A DNA stretch of 64,000 nt from a bacterium (GTDB lineage: Bacteria > Patescibacteriota > Minisyncoccia > Phycocordibacterales > CAIZLB01), in assembly GCA_037127815.1 (NCBI GenBank), contig JBAXXP010000001.1, forward strand, positions 16,936 through 80,935. Reading direction: 5' to 3'. Made by a program: the position numbers and the translations under genes. A model generated the notes under the pieces. It saw only the letters and a program-made list of their open reading frames with translations, was not told where the DNA came from and did not search any database. Positions 3,841 to 54,657 of the stretch are shown one piece after another; positions within the stretch are counted from its first letter, which is position 1; the number at the start of each line of letters is the position of its first letter.

Positions 3841-5055
3841 CTATAAATTATTCTTCCTAATTCTATTCCCTGCAACAAACAAAAGTGTCAAAAAAACTAA
3901 AGCTGAAAATCCTATTCCCGCCCAAGCTATCCAGGGATATTGTTCAGTGAATCTACTTTCACTAGTGTCGCAAGCATCTCCAATTTTATCGCCATCAGTA
4001 TCTCTTTGATCATAATTTGGAACATCCCTACAATTATCTATGGAGTTAATTATTCCGTCTCTGTCATAATCATCACAAACATCCCCTCTTCCATTTTGAT
4101 CAATATCAAGCTGATCTCCATTGGCAACGTTTATACAATTATCTATTACATTAGGAACACCATCTCCGTCAGTATCACTTAGGACAAAAACTGGGTTCTC
4201 CAAAACAGCAGGCATTGAGATTTTCCTTACACCAAGAGACGATGAATAATTGGAGGCCTCTTCATAATTTGCATATATCTTAGGTGCAACTTCAGGATTT
4301 ACATAAATTACATACTCTTTTTTGGGAAGCGCTAAAAAACTTAAGGACTCTCCAGCATATGCATTTAATGTATCATTTAAATGAATCTCTGAAATTCTAA
4401 TAGGTTGAGCGTATTGTAGTTCTAAAATCCATTTGTTTGACAATGTTATTGGAAAGTTAATTTCATTTGAGGTTGGTTTGTAATTGTTTAGCAAGACAAT
4501 TTCTTTGCCATTTACGTATGCCTTCAATGTAACCAATGTAGGTAGTGAGACATACGAATCAAAAGATAAATTTAAAGAGTCAGACTTAATTGCTTTTGAA
4601 TAATTAATTGAAATTGCAGAAATACTTTTACTCTCTTCCTTATTAAGGTAGAAATCCTTCATCGTTTGATAATTATTATCAAACAAATCGTTTAGATTTT
4701 CATTAGTAGAAATATCTATTGCATTTACATTATTAACATTTATTTGATTATCTCTCGTGACCAAACTTGAAATAAATTTACCATCAGTTTTATTGTATAC
4801 ACCAAAAGAGTCACTACTGATTTGATTGATGTCTATGGGAATCTGTAAGAGTGTCGGAACTAATATATTTTGGGCAGGAACTTTCATATAGTTCTTATAC
4901 GCTTTAAATATCACCTCGTTTGTTGATGTGGCGACACTTGTCACAGGTTGCCAATCTTTTACAATCGCATATGCAGGCTTAAAACTTAAAATTAGGACGA
5001 ATGCTATTGCAAGACATGCTGTAACCGATGATTTTATAATTAGTTTTTTATTCAT
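3841..5055 (-). CDS. Secreted/cell-surface protein with C-terminal thrombospondin type-3 (TSP3) Ca-binding repeats and a C-terminal transmembrane anchor
   Basis: N-terminal signal peptide [30 protein letters not shown]. The C-terminal region [70 protein letters not shown] fits the DxDxDGxxDxxDNC TSP3 consensus. A terminal hydrophobic helix follows, ending in a basic tail. Confidence 0.6.
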
Positions 5056-28185: not shown

Positions 28186-28818
28186 TTAATTCTTATTCCT
28201 ATTTACCCACCAAGCATCATCCTTATCACCAAACCACCAATGATCAGATTCTATATTTAATATTTTCTCTGCCAAGTCTTTTGCTTCATCCGTCTTTAGT
28301 CTACTTATTGTAGATTTAACCCAAGTCCTTGCTCTCTCATTACCAATATCAATTTGCTCTTTTAGTGAAATTAAAAATTCTAGATTATCTGCATCTTTTG
28401 CAAGCTGTGATTCATATGTAGTTCTTTCATGATATTCATGCAACAACTCCCCTATTTTATTTCCAAACGGCAATGAATCAACCAAATCTTTTTCAGCCTT
28501 CTCCTCTAGTCTTTCTGTATATTTTTGATGAACATAATTTAAATCAGAAATTCTAGATTCTGTTATGTCGTGGAATTGACACATTTGAACGATTCTTCCA
28601 ACATCAACTTTTCCATTTATGTGACCTAGGCAAAATCCAATATAAACAACTCTGTTAATATGTTCAGCAACACTTTGTTGTCCGCTGCCCAAAAACGCAG
28701 ACCAACTACGAGGTGTTTTTGCTAAGATTCCAACTTCATATAAGAAGTCTACTACGGGGTCCACTGAATTCTCTGGAATGTTAGTTATGATGTTTTTCAT
28801 ATAATTAGATACTAGCAT
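28186..28818 (-). CDS. HD-domain phosphohydrolase (YfbR-like 5'-deoxynucleotidase family)
   Basis: 210 aa. H...HD...D metal-ligand pattern (AEHINRV, QFHDITE, LAKDADNLE). Confidence 0.65.
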   Translation of the reverse strand: MLVSNYMKNIITNIPENSVDPVVDFLYEVGILAKTPRSWSAFLGSGQQSVAEHINRVVYIGFCLGHINGKVDVGRIVQMCQFHDITESRISDLNYVHQKYTERLEEKAEKDLVDSLPFGNKIGELLHEYHERTTYESQLAKDADNLEFLISLKEQIDIGNERARTWVKSTISRLKTDEAKDLAEKILNIESDHWWFGDKDDAWWVNRNKN

Positions 28819-28917
28819 ATCTGAGCCAAATTTGTGTACTGCTCCAAATTTTTAACTTCTATATTACGCTCCTAACACAGCCCTCATGTTCCAGAATTTT
28901 AGCAGAAATAAAAAACC

Positions 28918-28955
28918 TCTGGGTCACATATAATGTGCCCCAGAGGGTGTTTGAG
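28918..28955 (-). terminator. Hairpin (CCTCTGGG-tcacatataatgtgc-CCCAGAGG) followed by a T-run on the minus strand, downstream of 28984-29283
   Basis: The stem has one G.U pair. AAATAAAAAA on the plus strand gives TTTTTTATTT after the stem on the minus strand. Confidence 0.4.
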
Positions 28956-28983
28956 AATAGAATCATATTGTAATGATTGGTAA

Positions 28984-29283
28984 TCACCAGCCAAACGGGT
29001 TAGCGTATGGATTGTAGTATGGTTCCACGTAGTGTCCACGGTAGTAGCCACGGCGGCCATAGCCACCGTACGGAACAGTCGGACGGTTCATGGAATTGTT
29101 GAGGACAGCACCCCCTACCGCAGCAGCAGCAACACCCAATGCGGCCATTCCGACAGCATTGCCCATCTTGGCATTAGCTTCAGTTTGGCGAGCGCGCTGT
29201 TCGGGAGTACCACTTGGCATGGCGCAGTTTGTGAAAACAAGCGACACCATCGTAACGACAACAGTCAACAGTTTAGTTTTCAT
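28984..29283 (-). CDS. Small exported protein with a glycine-zipper segment and a Tyr/Gly/Arg/Pro-rich C-terminal tail
   Basis: Signal peptide MKTKLLTVVVTMVSLVFTNC, GMAALGVAAAAVGGAV glycine zipper, then PYGGYGRRGYYRGHYVEPYYNPYANPFGW. Confidence 0.5.
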   Translation of the reverse strand: MKTKLLTVVVTMVSLVFTNCAMPSGTPEQRARQTEANAKMGNAVGMAALGVAAAAVGGAVLNNSMNRPTVPYGGYGRRGYYRGHYVEPYYNPYANPFGW

Positions 29284-29346
29284 TTGTTCTGATTCTGGTT
29301 TTGGTTTTCTGACATCAGGAAAGGAGTATTCCTCCGGTCCTCACTA

Positions 29347-29374
29347 ATGCTATTCCTATCATATTTTTTGTCAA
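29347..29374 (-). promoter_or_regulatory. Sigma70-like promoter (minus strand: TTGACA-16nt-TAGCAT) for the 28984-29283 gene. A near-identical copy precedes the next paralog
   Basis: Minus-strand sequence CATTGACAAAAAATATGATAGGAATAGCATTAG. The same TTGACA-N16-TAGCATTA architecture and GAATAGCATTA block recur at 29872-29899. Confidence 0.5.
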
Positions 29375-29377
29375 TGA

Positions 29378-29791
29378 TCATCTATTGTTATGACCGTGTC
29401 CACCTTGGTGTTGATTGCCCCCAAAGTTTTGGTGCTGACCATATCCACCTCCTCTTCCTGGCGTGTTGTATACACCACGGTTGTAACTACCGTTGTAACC
29501 ACTATATCCATGATTACCGCCAACACTGTGACCGTAACCACTTGTATATCCACGATCTCCATAACTTGATCCGTAGTTATGGTTATCGTAACGATTATAG
29601 TATCCACCTCCGCGATAATAATTACGATATGGTTCGTACCCATAATACTGGGGACTTTCCACAATCACCTCCTCGACATACCCAGGTGTGTATGCTTGAC
29701 TGCTATAATCAATCATCGGCACACAACTCGTCAAAAGAAATGCTGGTGGAGCAAGGACAAGTAATGCTGTAAGAAACAATTTTGCATTCAT
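29378..29791 (-). CDS. Lipoprotein with a Gly/Tyr/Arg/Asn-rich low-complexity C-terminal region
   Basis: Lipobox LLTSC after the signal peptide MNAKLFLTALLVLAPPAFLLTSC. The tail is YYGYEPYRNYYRGGGYYNRYDNHNYGSSYGDRGYTSGYGHSVGGNHGYSGYNGSYNRG.... Confidence 0.5.
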   Translation of the reverse strand: MNAKLFLTALLVLAPPAFLLTSCVPMIDYSSQAYTPGYVEEVIVESPQYYGYEPYRNYYRGGGYYNRYDNHNYGSSYGDRGYTSGYGHSVGGNHGYSGYNGSYNRGVYNTPGRGGGYGQHQNFGGNQHQGGHGHNNR

Positions 29792-29871
29792 ATTCTTTGT
29801 GATTCTAGGGTTCTGTATTTTAGTTCAGGGTTCTGATGCAAGGAATCGATAACATCTTCACATCTGTCTTA

Positions 29872-29899
29872 ATGCTATTCTTCTCGTGATTTTTGTCAA
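29872..29899 (-). promoter_or_regulatory. Sigma70-like promoter (minus strand TTGACA-16nt-TAGCAT) for lipoprotein gene 29378-29791
   Basis: Minus-strand CATTGACAAAAATCACGAGAAGAATAGCATTAAG. Duplicate of the element at 29347-29374. Confidence 0.5.
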
Positions 29900-29961
29900 T
29901 GCAGAAAAATAATCACAAAAAAAAGAGCCCTATTGCTAGGACTCTTTTTATTGTTTCTTTG

Positions 29962-30033
29962 CGCGGCTGATGGGTGCTGACCCCACGGCCTCTCCCGTGA
30001 CAGGGGAGTGCTCTACCGTTGAGCTACAGCCGC
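29962..30033 (-). tRNA. tRNA-Asp (anticodon GUC). CCA not encoded. Unusual T-loop (GTCAGCA)
   Basis: GCGGCTGTAGCTCAACGGTAGAGCACTCCCCTGTCACGGGAGAGGCCGTGGGGTCAGCACCCATCAGCCGCG. The anticodon loop CTGTCAC matches E. coli tRNA-Asp, and the discriminator is G. Confidence 0.7.
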
Positions 30034-30632
30034 ATTTTCATGAATCCTTCGAAAATAAGCTTTTTTCTGTCCAGATAAAGCTTACTCGTCGTATTATACA
30101 TGATTTTATAAATTTTCAAAGAGTCTCGGGTACTATACTGTAATCTACTATAATTTCCACTTCTAAGGTTAAATAAACTTCCACCGTCCAAACCTAAAGA
30201 ATTAAGCATATTAAATAGATTATTTAAGAACATTTTACTAGCAGAAGTAAAGGCTACAAACATCACGGATGTTGGTTTTTTTCTTGTTTTATTAGTATGC
30301 CCTACCCAGATATTTCCATCCCCATCAAAATACCCTCTAATAAAATCTCCTTCATATTTTTTTGGAATGGTAGGAATATCCATTCTTAATGACTTATTTG
30401 GGGTAAGTCCAAGGAGTACAAGGTCATTAAACATTTCTTTGCTTCCAATTTGGACCCTATATACAGACCCCGTTTCTGATTTTATTTCAGATATTTTATG
30501 TGGTAATTTCATTACTTCAGCAATAGAAATAAGAAGTTCCCTGTCAGCCGTATAGAAAGAGATAAAATGAGTATTTCTTTTAGTTTTAATTATGTTACCA
30601 TCTGCAAATAAAAAACCTAAAATATAAGCCAT
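30024..30632 (-). CDS. Free-standing double-motif LAGLIDADG homing endonuclease
   Basis: 202 aa. Motif 1 LGFLFADGNI and motif 2 IRGYFDGDGNI are spaced about 100 aa apart, typical of monomeric two-domain LAGLIDADG enzymes. The 3' end overlaps the first ~10 nt of tRNA-Asp. Confidence 0.8.
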   Translation of the reverse strand: MAYILGFLFADGNIIKTKRNTHFISFYTADRELLISIAEVMKLPHKISEIKSETGSVYRVQIGSKEMFNDLVLLGLTPNKSLRMDIPTIPKKYEGDFIRGYFDGDGNIWVGHTNKTRKKPTSVMFVAFTSASKMFLNNLFNMLNSLGLDGGSLFNLRSGNYSRLQYSTRDSLKIYKIMYNTTSKLYLDRKKLIFEGFMKMRL

Positions 30633-30740
30633 GTTAGGCGACCATTTTTTGAAAAAGTTGTTGTTGTTAATTTTAAATACTGGAGTGGTATTATTATATA
30701 TTCGAAAAAATTAATGACAATTGCGAACATTAAAAAAGTG

Positions 30741-30814
30741 TGTCGACGGGAGGGATCGAACCTCCGACCTTGGGCTTATGAGTCCCACGCTCTAACCAAC
30801 TGAGCTACGTCGAC
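30741..30814 (-). tRNA. tRNA-Met (anticodon CAU), elongator-type or tRNA-Ile2-type (G1-C72 paired). CCA not encoded
   Basis: GTCGACGTAGCTCAGTTGGTTAGAGCGTGGGACTCATAAGCCCAAGGTCGGAGGTTCGATCCCTCCCGTCGACA. Anticodon loop CTCATAA. Confidence 0.75.
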
Positions 30815-30941
30815 GTACAGACACTATAATACAAAAACACCTAATTTTCAAGCTTTATAGAAGGCTCTATTTTATGCATTTTTTACGATTAATATCTACC
30901 CAGCAAAAAAGCCCCTATTAGGAGCTTTTTTTTTTAAATTG

Positions 30942-31012
30942 TTGCGGAGTCCGGAATTGCACCGGATCTACAAGGTTATGAGCCTCGCGTGCGACTGTAA
31001 CACTCCCCCGCA
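30942..31012 (-). tRNA. Atypical tRNA-like gene with a CAU anticodon loop. The D-loop lacks GG and the T-loop is TGCAATT
   Basis: TGCGGGGGAGTGTTACAGTCGCACGCGAGGCTCATAACCTTGTAGATCCGGTGCAATTCCGGACTCCGCAA folds into a cloverleaf with a 7-bp acceptor stem (U1-A72, one G.U) and anticodon loop CTCATAA. The D and T loops are non-canonical. Confidence 0.4.
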
Positions 31013-31120
31013 ATTTGTATCTATATCAAATATGAATACCTTCGTACTATATAACATATTGTAATAAAAGACAATCCTTTTCAGGTTTTAGTCTAAAATA
31101 CCAAATAGCAATAAGTCAGC

Positions 31121-31903
31121 CTAGATAAAATAGAATTCAGCAAAAACCTTTCTGTATAAATCTATTGTGTTTTGAGCTTGCTCATGTGACAACTCATATG
31201 AAGACCCTTCATGAGCAATGGTGTTTCTAACTTTATGAGCCCTCCATGCCAAATCAAGTGTATTAAAGTCTGAGGACTCAATTGCTTTTAATTTGTCTGC
31301 GATAGTGTCTCCATCGTAACCCATTTGATCAAGCATTTCATATAGCAAAATATCAGCTTCAAGAATTGCCATTCTCCAATCTGAAGAATTTGTAGATGCT
31401 ATGTGACCTAAAATATCTTCCCATTTTTTATTTTCTCCAGATGGATTAAGTACAGGCTTACCGGCAGACAAGTCTGTACCACCTTCAGACACACCTTCTC
31501 CAACACCCCCCTGCGATACACCACTCTGTGAACCCGCAGTACTTGAAATACTTGCGATATAACCTTTTGGTAAACTAGTTTTATACAAAGTAACAATTTC
31601 CTTTTGCTTATTTTTTAAATAAAAGGACGCAAGAAGGAAAAATAGAATTAAAAAAACAGAGAAAAATATCACCATATTAAATAGTGAATTGAATGAGTCC
31701 AGAGCCTGATTTATAAAACCAGTTGAGTCTGTAGTCAACTTTCCTTGTCCGTACCCCAAATTCTCTAAAACTCTTTTCCCGGTTGCAAGATAAATAAGAA
31801 CAATAAAAGCGACAACTGAAAATATCTTAATTTCCAATGCGAACATATGGTCTGAAGCCCCAGCACTTGCTGGTTTTTTTGCATCTGGTTTTTTATCTGC
31901 CAT
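31121..31903 (-). CDS. Two-TM membrane protein whose C-terminal alpha-helical domain carries an R-x4-H (HEPN-like, DUF4145-like) motif
   Basis: 260 aa. Lys-rich N-terminus, two transmembrane helices, a Ser/Gly-rich linker, then ...AWRAHKVRNTIAHEGSSYELSHEQAQNTIDLYRKV. The R-N-T-I-A-H segment fits the HEPN Rx4-6H motif. Family assignment is tentative. Confidence 0.4.
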   Translation of the reverse strand: MADKKPDAKKPASAGASDHMFALEIKIFSVVAFIVLIYLATGKRVLENLGYGQGKLTTDSTGFINQALDSFNSLFNMVIFFSVFLILFFLLASFYLKNKQKEIVTLYKTSLPKGYIASISSTAGSQSGVSQGGVGEGVSEGGTDLSAGKPVLNPSGENKKWEDILGHIASTNSSDWRMAILEADILLYEMLDQMGYDGDTIADKLKAIESSDFNTLDLAWRAHKVRNTIAHEGSSYELSHEQAQNTIDLYRKVFAEFYFI

Positions 31904-32024
31904 TGTATTGTAATTCTATCATACTAGATGAGCAAAGAGAAAGACTAATTAGAATATGTACAAATTTTCGATTAAATTCCCCACCAACATACAGTATTAC
32001 TGCCTAAAGTAGAATTAGTTTCCC

Positions 32025-33314
32025 TTACTGGGGGGTGCTGGTGCCGGTGTCAACACAGGTGTTAGTTACATAGTCAAAATATGTGGTCTCCGTTGCTCCA
32101 GCACAGTAAGGTTCAACAGACGTCTTTCTTTGATCAACCGAGGCTGCGCATGTACCATTGGCAGTATTTTCCGTTCCGTCTGTAAGGAACACCAGACCTT
32201 CAGGACAAACAGCCTCAGTAGTACAATCCGTATCCGCTGAATCCACATCATTATCCAAATCATTATCTATACCGTCATGACATGTTGTTAAAGTATTTTC
32301 AGGACGTGATAGAAAAGGGTGAGCACCCGAGTGCAAAAAACCGGCACAATCTGCATCATAATTATCACTAGCTCCATCACCATCATTATCGATATGATCG
32401 TTACAAAGATCTGCTGTATTCTCCTGTGGAGATGGAGAAGTAATGGTATTTACGATTGGAGCAAAGACAGTCTCATAGAAGCTTCCTCCTGAACCATTAG
32501 AAATAGCAGGGGCACCATTTGTAATACCAGCAACGGCATCAACGGAGTCGCTTATATTGGTAGATGCCTCTAAACCATCATGTCCTGCAGGGAAGGGTCT
32601 CTCAGAAACTTCAGATTCACCAGCTCCAACAGTATACTCCACAACACCATACGTGTACCCATTTTCGTTTTCGCCTCCATTATTCAAAACATCAATAGCC
32701 GCAGGACTCGTGTCCCCTAAAATAAAACCAGTTCTCTTGTTTATAATACCACTTGATTCTGACCCACCTCCACTTACTCCAACTTGAGCTGTCAAAATAG
32801 AGTAAGTTGCAAACGTTGTGTCAGTTTTAATTGCCTTATAACAAATCCCTGCTGCATCATCATCATATGGGTGAACGGGTACGGCTGGCATGTATTTTTT
32901 TGCTACCAATGCCGCCGCCGCATTATCAAAGTTTACACAAAGCTGTGTCGTACTATGTGTGGCTGATGCATCAGCCTTTTTAATAAAAAACGAAAGTTTG
33001 TTTGCCCAATTTGCTCTTTGTTCATTGTTGTGTCCAGCCGTTCTCTGCAAACCCAAAACCTTATTTTCCTTTTGATTATTCAGCGCAACGGTAGTTCCAT
33101 CTGTTGGCGGAAATGTATGTGTATCATTATAATAAAGATCTGCAGCTATTCTAAACTGCCTCAAGTCCTCTGTTATCTTTGTATCATTAGTTTTCATTCT
33201 TGTGCTAGCAAGATTATTTAGAACAATTGATGACATTAGTGCGATTATCGCAACAACAACGAGAAGCTCAATTAAAGTGAAAGCTCTTTCTCTATTAGTT
33301 TTAGTTTTCATCAT
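32025..33314 (-). CDS. Large type IV pilin-like protein (prepilin leader + ~400-aa C-terminal domain with Cys-bracketed Asp-rich Ca-binding-like repeats)
   Basis: MMKTKTNRERA|FTLIELLVVVAIIALMSSIVL prepilin N-terminus. The C-terminal region has the repeats CNDHIDNDGDGASDNYDADC and CHDGIDNDLDNDVDSADTDC. The start is taken at MMKTK, since the track ORF adds 18 unlikely residues. Confidence 0.6.
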   Translation of the reverse strand: MMKTKTNRERAFTLIELLVVVAIIALMSSIVLNNLASTRMKTNDTKITEDLRQFRIAADLYYNDTHTFPPTDGTTVALNNQKENKVLGLQRTAGHNNEQRANWANKLSFFIKKADASATHSTTQLCVNFDNAAAALVAKKYMPAVPVHPYDDDAAGICYKAIKTDTTFATYSILTAQVGVSGGGSESSGIINKRTGFILGDTSPAAIDVLNNGGENENGYTYGVVEYTVGAGESEVSERPFPAGHDGLEASTNISDSVDAVAGITNGAPAISNGSGGSFYETVFAPIVNTITSPSPQENTADLCNDHIDNDGDGASDNYDADCAGFLHSGAHPFLSRPENTLTTCHDGIDNDLDNDVDSADTDCTTEAVCPEGLVFLTDGTENTANGTCAASVDQRKTSVEPYCAGATETTYFDYVTNTCVDTGTSTPQ

Positions 33315-33379
33315 ACTTATATTATACAGCTTTATCGAAAAAAATCGACAACATAACGCCAAATACAATCAAACAATGA

Positions 33380-54427: not shown

Positions 54428-54514
54428 GGAGGATTGGATGAGCGGCTTAAATCAACAGTTTACTAAACTGTCGGCTTGGAAACAGGCCCGTGAGTTCGAA
54501 TCTCACATCCTCCG
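54428..54514 (+). tRNA. Type II (Ser-like, long variable arm, G73) tRNA with apparent anticodon ACU. CCA not encoded
   Basis: GGAGGATTGGATGAGCGGCTTAAATCAACAGTTTACTAAACTGTCGGCTTGGAAACAGGCCCGTGAGTTCGAATCTCACATCCTCCG. The anticodon stem ACAGT/ACTGT gives loop TTACTAA. The loop differs from the tRNA-Ser(GCU) loop TTGCTAA only by G34A. Confidence 0.6.
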
Positions 54515-54657
54515 CAAAATAATGGGCATAGCCCATATATTTTGCGAGAGTGCAGAATAGGTTGCGAAGCGACCGTAATTCTGCCTCCGCAAGTCATATT
54601 ACCCTTAAAATTTGACACCCTCTGTATCTTTGTTAAACTATAGGTACAAATAGACTT

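What the first reader, a model, noticed from the sequence alone, without database searches (positions are those of the whole stretch)
29962..31012. Free-standing LAGLIDADG homing endonuclease wedged in a tRNA gene cluster (tRNA-Asp | HE | tRNA-Met | tRNA-like CAU)
A 202-aa protein with two canonical LAGLIDADG motifs (LGFLFADGNI, IRGYFDGDGNI) is encoded between tRNA-Met(CAU) and tRNA-Asp(GUC) on the same strand. Its last codons overlap the 5' end of tRNA-Asp (30024-30033). LAGLIDADG enzymes are normally intron- or intein-encoded. Here no intron ribozyme core was recognised and the flanking tRNAs look uninterrupted. So this is either a free-standing, domesticated homing endonuclease co-transcribed with tRNAs, or a remnant of an intron invasion into a tRNA or rRNA gene. 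Near-identical terminator-like hairpins (AAAAAAG(A)GCCCCTATT..AGGAGCTCTTTTT) at 29926-29955 and 30905-30935 bracket the unit.
Basis: partly seen in the sequence, partly recalled or inferred. Interest (0 to 1): 0.65.

Follow-up and report, generated by a model that had tools for sequence, protein, structure and literature searches.

The report
Homing endonuclease gene abutting tRNA-Asp
The window carries one copy of a widespread, apparently undescribed selfish endonuclease gene of Patescibacteria that sits in the leader of the tRNA-Asp gene and, in relatives, travels with a small self-splicing intron in that tRNA, which would be the first cellular, LAGLIDADG-type case of 'collaborative homing'.

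Summary
A LAGLIDADG ORF (30024-30632, minus strand) lies between tRNA-Met(CAU) and tRNA-Asp(GUC), and its TAG stop is U8-A9-G10 of the tRNA. No intron is present in the window.

It is not a one-off. At least 217 species-level genomes, mostly Paceibacteria, carry the same arrangement. In 66 of 73 loci the ORF ends inside tRNA-Asp.

It is a presence/absence insertion, not a fixed host gene:
- Empty sites have a 22-80 nt spacer in place of 706 nt.
- Two empty sites have a tRNA-Asp identical to the window's.
- Decayed remnants exist.

[quoted passage not shown] The endonuclease lies outside the intron.

Many promoters of the gene contain a mimic of tRNA-Asp positions 18-39. This points to the likely DNA target and to autorepression.

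Best reading: a free-standing homing endonuclease that mobilises itself and the neighbouring intron, as in phage collaborative homing. The window's copy is the intron-less state. It lacks the family's start codon (ACT) and the promoter mimic, so its current activity is doubtful. Target and cleavage are inferred, not shown.

The parts
30941..31012 (-). Second tRNA(CAU), atypical D and T loops; identity (elongator Met or Ile2) not resolved. It is a conserved upstream neighbour of the unit.
   Evidence: ARAGORN; Rfam tRNA 40.7 bits. The same tRNA lies upstream in L201, L203 and L204.
30905..30935 (-). Terminator-like hairpin after tRNA(CAU)-2. It marks the upstream edge of the transcription unit.
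   Evidence: Fold -14.1 kcal/mol, z = -2.8; sequence.
30823..30851 (-). Promoter-like site (TTGAAA-17-TATAGT) in front of tRNA-Met(CAU).
   Evidence: Consensus scan, 10 of 12 positions.
30740..30814 (-). tRNA-Met(CAU). It is the conserved upstream flank of the insertion and the inferred left homology arm.
   Evidence: 69.8 bits. A tRNA-Met(CAU) precedes the endonuclease gene, or the empty site, in most of about 200 related loci.
30693..30720 (-). Promoter-like site TTGTCA-16-TATAAT. The -10 box ends 6 nt before the family's start-codon position, which is leaderless-mRNA geometry.
   Evidence: 11 of 12 positions. The same 6-nt geometry occurs in 45 of 90 related loci. Coordinates.
30684..30686 (-). 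Position of the family's conserved start codon. The window has ACT, which is not a start codon.
   Evidence: ATG or GTG at this position in about 90 of 92 relatives. ACT here. The identical protein is called as 202 aa on 8 contigs.
30633..30683 (-). In-frame codons of the conserved N-terminal extension (PVFKINNNNFFKKWSPN), which has no start codon of its own in the window.
   Evidence: dN is well below dS for this segment. The segment is ordered in the AlphaFold model.
30024..30632 (-). LAGLIDADG endonuclease core ORF (202 codons plus stop): two motifs, with both catalytic Asp residues present.
   Evidence: D11 and D105 invariant. Structure model and fold matches. dN/dS about 0.1.
30024..30033 (-). 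Overlap of the ORF end with the 5' end of tRNA-Asp. The TAG stop is tRNA U8-A9-G10.
   Evidence: The stop lies inside tRNA-Asp in 66 of 73 related loci.
29961..30033 (-). tRNA-Asp(GUC), uninterrupted. It is identical to the spliced exons of intron-containing relative L061 and to empty-site alleles L169 and L174. The T-loop is unusual (GUCAGCA).
29996..30017 (-). Inferred recognition region of the endonuclease within the tRNA-Asp gene (GGTAGAGCACTCCCCTGTCACG, tRNA positions about 18-39).
   Evidence: Inference from the promoter mimic TGGTTAG-N8-CCTGTCACG found in relatives. Not tested biochemically.
29999..30000 (-). Unoccupied group I intron insertion site (between U35 and C36).
   Evidence: Relatives carry 203-260 nt group I introns exactly here. 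The 35/36 site is published in PMC13011429.
29920..29949 (-). Intrinsic-terminator-like hairpin that ends the HE/tRNA-Asp transcript.
   Evidence: 13-bp stem plus T-run; -20 kcal/mol, z = -6.3.

Best explanation
The ORF is a free-standing LAGLIDADG homing endonuclease gene (HEG) of a large Patescibacteria family.

Shown:
- The gene is an insertion of about 650-680 bp between tRNA-Met(CAU) and tRNA-Asp(GUC).
- The ORF starts about 7 nt after a -10 box, which is leaderless-mRNA geometry, and it ends inside the tRNA gene.
- The gene is present or absent among otherwise equivalent loci, and it decays to C-terminal remnants.
- It is under purifying selection.

Inferred:
- The enzyme recognises the uninterrupted tRNA-Asp gene across roughly positions 18-39 and cuts alleles that lack the element.
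- Repair from an HEG-bearing allele uses the two conserved tRNA genes as homology. It copies the HEG and, by co-conversion over about 35 bp, the intron as well. This is collaborative, or trans, homing.
- An intron at 35/36 splits the site and protects its carrier.
- A copy of the site in the HEG promoter lets the enzyme repress its own synthesis.
- RNase P processing of tRNA-Asp would remove the stop codon from the mRNA, which would further limit expression.

The window holds the HEG-plus, intron-minus state beside a tRNA-Asp identical to naive alleles. Its copy lacks both the canonical start codon and the promoter site. It is therefore probably weakly expressed or recently silenced, not an active driver.
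For: Family and fold:
- Pfam LAGLIDADG_3.
- Catalytic D11 and D105 are invariant in 31 homologues.
- The AlphaFold model has pLDDT 87.5. Its best fold matches are I-Tsp061I, I-DmoI and I-AniI.

Conserved placement:
- 217 species genomes carry a relative.
- The order tRNA-Met, ORF, tRNA-Asp holds in most of 80 loci.
- The stop lies inside the tRNA in 66 of 73 loci.
- The -10 box ends exactly 6 nt before the start codon in 45 of 90 loci.

Mobility signature:
- An unbiased tRNA-Asp sample gave HE-/intron- about 72, HE+/intron+ 13, HE+/intron- 5 and HE-/intron+ 4 (Fisher p = 5e-9).
- Empty sites L169 and L174 have a tRNA-Asp 72/72 identical to the window's, with spacers of 22 and 58 nt against 706 nt.
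- C-terminal remnants occur in at least 9 loci.
- dN/dS is 0.06-0.25.
- Intron states are interspersed on the HE tree.
- HE and intron distances correlate (Mantel r = 0.38, p = 0.0005).

Intron:
- Rfam RF00028 hits reach 84 bits.
- Introns are 203-260 nt, too short to hold an ORF.
- Self-splicing of such tRNA-Asp introns is published (PMC13011429).

Target clue:
- GGT(T)AG-N9-CTGTCA[CT] occurs 145 times in 1.33 Mb: 114 real tRNA-Asp genes and 31 HE promoters, with none elsewhere.
- At least 13 of 16 positions match in 41 of 93 promoters against 0 of 614 background windows.
- Among HE+ loci the consensus D-arm is found in 41 of 42 intron+ alleles but only 11 of 41 intron- alleles (p = 2e-12).

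Precedents: collaborative homing, I-TevI operator autorepression and SegB (PMC3984707, PMC2988022, PMC2790892).
Against: - No cleavage, binding or homing has been measured. The target is inferred from a sequence mimic.
- Eleven HE+/intron- loci, including the window, have a consensus D-arm. Under the model that makes their tRNA-Asp apparently susceptible. Most of the other ten loci keep a normal start codon, so immunity in them is unexplained.
- The D-arm association could be phylogenetic. My metagenome pattern required the consensus D-arm, so the frequency of variant D-arms in HE-less genomes is unknown.
- The window's whole sub-clade is intron-less yet keeps intact ORFs. The gene can therefore persist without the intron.
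- The HE-intron distance correlation could reflect shared host ancestry.
- The promoter mimic could be a conserved footprint of an old duplication and not an operator.
- Leaderless transcription and RNase P truncation are inferred from geometry only.
Confidence: 0.6

Rival explanations
1. Domesticated LAGLIDADG protein. The gene has become a host factor tied to tRNA-Asp. It could be a DNA-binding regulator of the tRNA-Asp promoter, or an RNA chaperone or maturase for pre-tRNA-Asp or its intron. It is kept by selection for that role, not for mobility.
For: - Strong purifying selection, including in an entirely intron-less clade.
- Fixed position and orientation across hundreds of species.
- A tRNA-like site in its own promoter would suit a regulator.
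- LAGLIDADG maturases (bI3, I-AniI) are among the fold matches.
Against: - The gene is absent from about 66 of 77 intron-less and 4 of 17 intron-containing loci in an unbiased sample, including loci with a tRNA-Asp identical to the window's.
- Decayed remnants are frequent.
- Both catalytic Asp residues are invariant. By my recollection, dedicated maturases often lose them.
- The intron self-splices without protein in vitro (PMC13011429).
Confidence: 0.15
2. Mobile homing endonuclease with a different target, for example the spacer/tRNA junction or another locus. The intron association would then arise only from tight physical linkage (hitch-hiking). The intron insertion site would not lie within the recognition site.
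For: - HE+/intron- alleles with unaltered tRNA-Asp and intact genes exist, which is simplest if the tRNA-Asp body is not the target.
- The intron-less clade persists.
- The HEG is only about 35 bp from the intron site, so co-conversion alone would link them.
Against: - Sequence immediately upstream of tRNA-Asp in 60 empty sites is not conserved, so a junction-spanning site has no conserved left half.
- The promoter mimic reproduces tRNA positions 18-39, including the 35/36 junction, with exact spacing and complete specificity.
- The D-arm variant pattern would be unexplained.
Confidence: 0.2
3. The window's copy is a dying relic. It is an HEG that has lost expression and is on its way to deletion, with no present activity. 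This concerns the window's copy only and is compatible with the main explanation.
For: - ACT replaces the start codon that about 90 of 92 relatives keep.
- No ATG, GTG or TTG lies between the upstream stop and Met19.
- No promoter mimic is present.
- The model shows that the first LAGLIDADG helix and the ordered FFKxW segment begin before Met19.
- The adjacent tRNA-Asp is of the naive type.
- Sub-clade relative L203, which also has a consensus tRNA-Asp, has a stop codon inside the extension.
Against: - All 219 codons are intact.
- dN/dS versus relatives is 0.09-0.17, and the extension itself shows dN below dS.
- Relatives L202 (GTT) and L204 (ATT) also lack a canonical start yet conserve the extension. 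This hints at non-canonical initiation.
Confidence: 0.3
4. Ordinary intron-encoded endonuclease whose intron was missed.
For: By my recollection, LAGLIDADG enzymes are usually intron- or intein-encoded. Patescibacterial rRNA introns encode them (PMC11270868).
Against: - No intron model matches around the ORF at E <= 10.
- Both flanking tRNAs are complete.
- In relatives the intron is a separate 203-260 nt element downstream of the ORF, inside the tRNA.
Confidence: 0.02

Closest known systems
Collaborative or trans homing in phages: F-CphI with the psbA intron of cyanophage S-PM2, and mobE with the nrdB intron of T-even phages (PMC3984707, PMC6083498, PMC2790892)
   Same: A free-standing endonuclease gene lies next to a gene that carries an ORF-less or defunct group I intron. 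The inferred enzyme target covers the intron insertion site, so the intron protects its carrier and is mobilised in trans.
   Different: - Here the host is cellular (Patescibacteria), not a phage.
- The enzyme is LAGLIDADG, not Endo VII-like or HNH.
- The host gene is a tRNA.
- The HEG is only about 35 bp from the intron site and overlaps the target gene.
- All four HE/intron states, plus remnants, occur in nature.
- The target is inferred, not measured.
- The window itself has no intron.
Phage T4 SegB (PMC2988022, Table 1)
   Same: A free-standing homing endonuclease gene inserted between two tRNA genes of a tRNA cluster, with its target in the tRNA region.
   Different: SegB is a GIY-YIG enzyme and is phage-borne. 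The paper lists no associated intron and no overlap of its ORF with a tRNA.
I-TevI autorepression (PMC2988022)
   Same: A sequence resembling the homing site overlaps the endonuclease's own promoter.
   Different: - I-TevI is intron-encoded, a GIY-YIG enzyme and from phage T4.
- Here the mimic is seen in about 44-80% of relatives, in two registers.
- It is absent from the window.
- Binding has not been tested.
Group I introns at 35/36 of Patescibacteria tRNA-Asp and tRNA-Asn (Nakagawa et al. 2026, PMC13011429)
   Same: Same intron class, same insertion site and same phylum. Self-splicing was shown in vitro there.
   Different: That study searched for endonuclease genes only inside introns longer than 500 bp. 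It concluded that tRNA-Asp introns lack them and have limited mobility. The adjacent free-standing gene is not mentioned.
Monomeric two-domain LAGLIDADG enzymes I-Tsp061I, I-DmoI and I-AniI (PDB 2dch, 2vs7, 1p8k)
   Same: Same fold and size class, with two motifs and a conserved catalytic acid in each.
   Different: Sequence identity is only 16-19%. By their PDB titles, I-Tsp061I is intron-encoded and I-AniI is also a group I intron splicing factor, whereas this family is encoded outside introns.

Membership tests
LAGLIDADG homing endonuclease (single-chain, two-motif) | Two LAGLIDADG motifs in one polypeptide | tested here: met
   LGFLFADGN and IRGYFDGDGN; Pfam PF14528, E = 2e-13.
LAGLIDADG homing endonuclease (single-chain, two-motif) | Catalytic acidic residue at the end of each motif | tested here: met
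   D11 and D105 (202-aa numbering) are invariant in 31 and in 38 homologues.
LAGLIDADG homing endonuclease (single-chain, two-motif) | Pseudo-dimeric alpha-beta-beta-alpha-beta-beta-alpha fold | tested here: met
   AlphaFold2 pLDDT 87.5, pTM 0.86. Foldseek probability 1.00 to I-Tsp061I, I-DmoI, I-AniI and I-SmaMI.
LAGLIDADG homing endonuclease (single-chain, two-motif) | Site-specific cleavage of a long DNA target | not testable with these tools
   Needs a biochemical assay.
Free-standing homing endonuclease gene | ORF lies outside any intron or intein | tested here: met
   No intron model matches around the ORF. The flanking tRNAs are complete. In relatives the intron is a separate element.
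Free-standing homing endonuclease gene | Presence/absence polymorphism at one conserved locus, with empty sites and decayed copies | tested here: met
   About 66 clean empty sites, 18 or more occupied and 9 or more remnants. Empty alleles are identical to the window's tRNA-Asp.
Free-standing homing endonuclease gene | Enzyme cuts alleles that lack the gene, close to the insertion point | not testable with these tools
   The target is inferred only from the promoter mimic.
Collaborative (trans) homing pair | ORF-less group I intron in the gene next to the endonuclease gene | tested here: not met
   The window's tRNA-Asp is uninterrupted. The feature is met in about half of related loci and is statistically linked to the gene (p = 5e-9).
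Collaborative (trans) homing pair | Endonuclease target coincides with the intron insertion site | tested here: inconclusive
   The promoter mimic spans tRNA positions 18-39, including 35/36. The D-arm pattern is consistent with this. However, 11 HE+/intron- loci have apparently susceptible tRNAs.
Intron-encoded homing endonuclease | ORF embedded in a self-splicing intron | tested here: not met
Homing-site-like operator autorepression (I-TevI type) | Target-like sequence overlapping the gene's own promoter | tested here: not met
   The window's best match is only the tRNA-Met gene itself (11 of 16). The feature is met in 41 of 93 relatives at 13 or more of 16 positions. Binding and repression have not been tested.
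Domesticated LAGLIDADG (maturase or host factor) | Universal retention in the lineage that needs it, often with loss of the catalytic residues | tested here: not met
   The gene is absent from most equivalent loci. The catalytic residues are invariant.

The most novel reading that the evidence does not exclude
The protein is more than a selfish nuclease. It would be a translation product of the pre-tRNA-Asp leader that binds both the tRNA-Asp gene and a tRNA-like operator. This would form a feedback circuit. In that circuit tRNA processing (RNase P removes the ORF's stop codon), endonuclease synthesis and tRNA-Asp transcription would be coupled. It would be a selfish element part-way to becoming a regulator of an essential single-copy tRNA in reduced genomes.
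Probability: 0.12. Interest if true: 0.85.

Novelty: new variant of a known kind. Interest (0 to 1): 0.7.

Why it matters
- **Collaborative homing.** It is the proposed route by which group I introns acquired endonuclease genes. The reviews read here (PMC3984707, PMC2988022) describe it from phage systems only. This locus family would supply a natural, cellular and very large data set: hundreds of species, all four HE/intron states, decay intermediates and two intron types.
- **Testable prediction.** The promoter mimic gives a concrete target, tRNA-Asp gene positions about 18-39.
- **Published inference.** The result bears on a 2026 conclusion that Patescibacteria tRNA introns lack endonuclease genes and so rarely move. 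That survey looked only inside introns.
- **Compact design.** The ORF starts at the transcription start and borrows its stop codon from the invariant U8-A9-G10 of a tRNA. This is an unusually tight way to insert a gene into a reduced genome.
- **Annotation.** Pipelines miss both the intron-split tRNA-Asp and the true 220-aa start.

Tried and rejected
1. **Hidden intron around the ORF.** Rfam at E <= 10 over 28500-32500, and at gathering score over the whole window, found only tRNAs. Rejected.
2. **Target at the spacer/tRNA junction.** The last 45 nt upstream of tRNA-Asp in 60 empty sites show no conservation. Judged unlikely.
3. **Fixed host gene.** Rejected on the presence/absence data and the remnants.
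4. **A long (695 nt) tRNA-Asp intron in L145 that might hold an ORF.** The sequence turns GC-rich and unrelated, so this is probably a chimeric contig or a false 3' exon match. Discarded.
5. **Near-identical hairpins as element boundaries or repeats.** They are about 75% alike and are generic terminators. Rejected as a mobile-element feature.
6. **Loss of the start codon tracking the intron-less state.** Almost all intron-less loci keep ATG or GTG. No general correlation.
7. **Checking the three published tRNA-Asp-intron genomes (GCA_001029755.1, GCA_023898525.1, GCA_030583725.1) for the gene.** I could not map assembly accessions to the contigs I hold.
8. **Vertical versus horizontal descent from dS.** Synonymous sites are saturated (dS >= 1), so this was uninformative.
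9. **Calling the upstream tRNA(CAU) an initiator.** Withdrawn, because it has a paired G1-C72.
Full report
**1. What is in the window**

All features lie on the minus strand.
- A tRNA(CAU) at 30941-31012 is followed by a terminator-like hairpin at 30905-30935.
- A promoter-like site at 30823-30851 precedes tRNA-Met(CAU) at 30740-30814.
- A second promoter-like site, TTGTCA-16-TATAAT, lies at 30693-30720.
- A 202-codon ORF occupies 30024-30632 and runs into tRNA-Asp(GUC) at 29961-30033.
- A strong terminator-like hairpin lies at 29920-29949.

The ORF product has two LAGLIDADG motifs and matches Pfam LAGLIDADG_3 (E = 2e-13). Its last 10 nt, GCGGCTGTAG, are tRNA-Asp positions 1-10, so the stop codon is the tRNA's U8-A9-G10. 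No intron model matches the neighbourhood at E <= 10, and none matches anywhere in the window at gathering score. The exception is the hairpins, which are about 75% alike and not near-identical.

**2. The arrangement is a family trait**

- The protein has 1970 database relatives. The best 120 are full-length at 54-100% identity, and those that carry a source name are mostly from Patescibacteria/Paceibacterota.
- In an alignment of 31, all end at the same column with ...KMR[P/S/A/L]. Three instead end NCGGSSTG, which is the tRNA 5' end read in another frame.
- A scan of species-representative genomes found relatives in 217 genomes, and 80 loci were fetched.
- In most of them a tRNA-Met(CAU) lies 110-300 nt upstream, and the ORF ends in a TAG inside tRNA-Asp(GUC).
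- The stop lies inside the tRNA in 66 of 73 loci, and in 48 of those it is exactly U8-A9-G10.

**3. Relatives reveal a linked intron**

- Where ARAGORN found no tRNA-Asp, the 5' half of the tRNA (...CCTGT) is followed by a group I intron. Rfam RF00028 scores reach 84 bits.
- I reconstructed exons and introns for all loci. About half carry a 203-260 nt intron after U35, and there are two sequence types. These introns are too short to encode a protein.
- This is the 35/36 tRNA-Asp intron recently described in Patescibacteria and shown to self-splice in vitro (PMC13011429).
- That study looked for endonuclease genes only inside introns longer than 500 bp. It concluded that such introns lack them and have limited mobility.
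- The window's tRNA-Asp is identical to the spliced exons of the intron-containing relative L061.

**4. The gene is a polymorphic insertion, linked to the intron**

I scanned metagenome contigs with a pattern that lies wholly in the tRNA-Asp 5' exon, so the sample is blind to endonuclease and intron state. After resolving ambiguous cases by eye, the counts were:
- HE-/intron-: about 72
- HE+/intron+: 13
- HE+/intron-: 5
- HE-/intron+: 4

Fisher's exact test gives p = 5e-9.

Empty sites are tRNA-Met(CAU), a spacer with a median of about 53 nt, then tRNA-Asp. Two empty sites (L169, L174) have a tRNA-Asp 72/72 identical to the window's, with spacers of 22 and 58 nt against 706 nt in the window.

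An HMM scan of the longer spacers found truncated copies that always keep the C-terminal end next to the tRNA. These are L086, L122, L175, L176, L114, L159, L108, L187 and L177.

Invasion, decay and loss are all visible. This fits the life cycle I recall being proposed for homing endonuclease genes. It argues against a fixed, domesticated host gene.

**5. Selection and enzyme features**

- Both catalytic Asp residues are invariant.
- An AlphaFold2 model (pLDDT 87.5, pTM 0.86) has the two-domain LAGLIDADG fold.
- The closest solved structures are I-Tsp061I, I-DmoI, I-AniI and I-SmaMI, at 13-21% identity.
- In the window's sub-clade, dN/dS is 0.06-0.25 with saturated dS.
- On the endonuclease tree, intron-containing and intron-less loci are interspersed. 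The window falls in a wholly intron-less clade.
- Endonuclease and intron distances correlate (Mantel r = 0.38, p = 0.0005).

**6. Expression architecture**

A conserved extension follows, (M/V)PIYKxVNKxFFKKWS.
- A TATAAT box matching at least 5 of 6 positions ends exactly 6 nt before that start codon in 45 of 90 loci, and within 5-8 nt in 59 of 90.
- This geometry implies a leaderless mRNA. The ORF fills the pre-tRNA-Asp leader from the transcription start to the tRNA body.
- It follows, as inference, that RNase P cleavage at tRNA +1 would leave the message without a stop codon.

**7. A clue to the target**

- Many promoters contain TGGTTAG-N8-CCTGTCACG. This has the sequence and spacing of tRNA-Asp positions about 17-39 (TGGTTAG-AGCACCCG-CCTGTCACG), from the D-loop to the anticodon loop, and it spans the 35/36 intron site.
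- A strict pattern hits 145 places in 1.33 Mb on both strands. Of these, 114 are genuine intron-less tRNA-Asp genes and 31 lie directly upstream of an endonuclease gene. None lies elsewhere.
- With a relaxed score, 41 of 93 promoters reach 13 or more of 16 positions, against 0 of 614 background windows. In 26 loci the site ends exactly 15 nt before the start codon. It is present in 29 of 47 intron-containing loci and 11 of 44 intron-less loci.
- A second register places the -10 box inside the site, with the start codon abutting it.
- The closest precedent is the I-TevI operator, a homing-site-like sequence over its own promoter that mediates autorepression (PMC2988022).
- I therefore infer that the enzyme recognises the uninterrupted tRNA-Asp gene across this segment, and that an intron at 35/36 splits the site.
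- Consistent with this, among HE+ loci the consensus D-arm is found in 41 of 42 intron-containing alleles but only 11 of 41 intron-less alleles (p = 2e-12). Recurrent variants include a one-base D-loop insertion (GGTTAGTAGC) and a compensated D-stem change (AGTTCA...GAAT).

**8. Mechanism proposed**

The system matches collaborative or trans homing as defined in phages. In that scheme a free-standing endonuclease and an ORF-less intron converge on one site (PMC3984707, PMC2790892, PMC6083498). A break inside tRNA-Asp lies between the endonuclease gene (upstream) and the intron site (downstream). Repair would use the conserved tRNA-Met and tRNA-Asp sequences as homology. Such repair can produce all four observed allele classes.

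Shown: the anatomy, the polymorphism, the linkage, the selection and the mimic.

Inferred: the target, the cleavage, the repair pathway, the autorepression and the RNase P effect.

**9. The window's own copy**

- It is HE+/intron-, and its tRNA-Asp is indistinguishable from naive alleles.
- At the family's start position it has ACT. No alternative ATG, GTG or TTG lies before Met19.
- The identical protein is called as 202 aa on 8 contigs, so an assembly error at the start position is unlikely.
- It lacks the promoter mimic.
- The model shows that the first LAGLIDADG helix and the ordered FFKxW segment begin before Met19.
- In its sub-clade the start position varies: ATG in L201, L001 and L002; GTT in L202; ATT in L204; and a stop inside the extension in L203.
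- The two members with a consensus, apparently susceptible tRNA-Asp (the window and L203) are the two with the most clearly defective N-termini. The numbers are very small.
- Against a dead gene: all 219 codons are intact, and both the core and the extension show dN well below dS.
- I rate it about 30% likely that this copy no longer makes active enzyme.

**10. Weak points**

- Nothing biochemical has been tested.
- Eleven HE+/intron- loci have consensus tRNA-Asp sequences. Most of those other than the window and L203 keep a normal start codon, which the immunity model does not explain.
- The D-arm association may be phylogenetic, because my unbiased sample required the consensus D-arm.
- The intron-less clade shows that the gene persists without the intron.
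- The identity of the upstream tRNA(CAU), which has a paired G1-C72, is unresolved.

**11. Novelty**

Full-text searches returned the 2026 intron paper, its preprint and a paper on endonucleases in rRNA insertions. The first two do not discuss an endonuclease gene beside tRNA-Asp, and the third never mentions tRNA. 'Free-standing LAGLIDADG' appears only in organelle genome papers. I file this as a new variant of a known kind. The enzyme family and the homing logic are known. The new elements are the cellular host, the LAGLIDADG enzyme, the tRNA target, the leader-filling architecture and the target-mimic promoter.

Noticed in passing
window 29962-29999 (T-arm of tRNA-Asp); also L001, L002, L027, L053, L058, L061 and others: The tRNA-Asp T-loop reads GUCAGCA (G54 and G58) instead of the near-universal UUCRANY, and it is paired with a short D-loop. 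[quoted passage not shown]
   Followed up: partly
window 30941-31012; L045 3286-3494; L049 3212-3510: The second tRNA(CAU) scores low (40.7 bits) and has atypical D and T loops. In relatives L045 and L049, another group I intron lies just upstream of tRNA-Met(CAU), probably inside the corresponding CAU tRNA. The published study lists a Met(CAU) 33/34 intron in a genome that also has the tRNA-Asp intron.
   Followed up: partly
L048 about 4610-4700; L041 about 4595-4690; L006; L020; L050: In a few loci the ORF ends in a short duplicate of the tRNA-Asp 5' end (for example TTGCGGCTGTAGCT). A 60-140 nt spacer and the complete tRNA-Asp follow. The 3' edge of the cassette therefore includes the first ~12 nt of the tRNA.
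   Followed up: no
L001, L002, L201 (intron-less) and L046, L051, L068 (type-B intron), upstream of the ORF: These loci share a third promoter type (...ttagatttcttYactttttctttggg...TAGAAT-ATTGAT-ATG) that lacks the tRNA-like site. The sharing cuts across intron state and across endonuclease clades.
   Followed up: no
L060 (record labelled Candidatus Roizmanbacteria): This locus carries the endonuclease plus the intron. It groups with Paceibacteria/Nomurabacteria copies (L056, L058) on the endonuclease tree. That suggests either transfer between classes or a mis-binned contig.
   Followed up: no
window 54428-54515 (+): ARAGORN calls a tRNA-Ser with anticodon ACT. Rfam does not report a tRNA there at gathering score, so it may be a false call or an odd tRNA.
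   Followed up: no
window 32025-33368 (-): A 447-aa ORF has a prepilin-type N-terminus (FTLIELLVVVAIIA), a long low-complexity middle and a Cys/Asp-rich C-terminus. It is probably a type IV pilin-like surface protein.
   Followed up: no
window 29378-29791 (-) and 28984-29283 (-): Two small ORFs have signal-peptide-like N-termini and Gly/Tyr/Asn/Arg-rich repetitive bodies. They lie directly downstream of the tRNA-Asp terminator.
   Followed up: no
L145 (metagenome contig Ga0118677_10084818): An apparent 695-nt tRNA-Asp intron begins like the usual intron and then turns GC-rich and unrelated. The contig is probably chimeric.
   Followed up: partly
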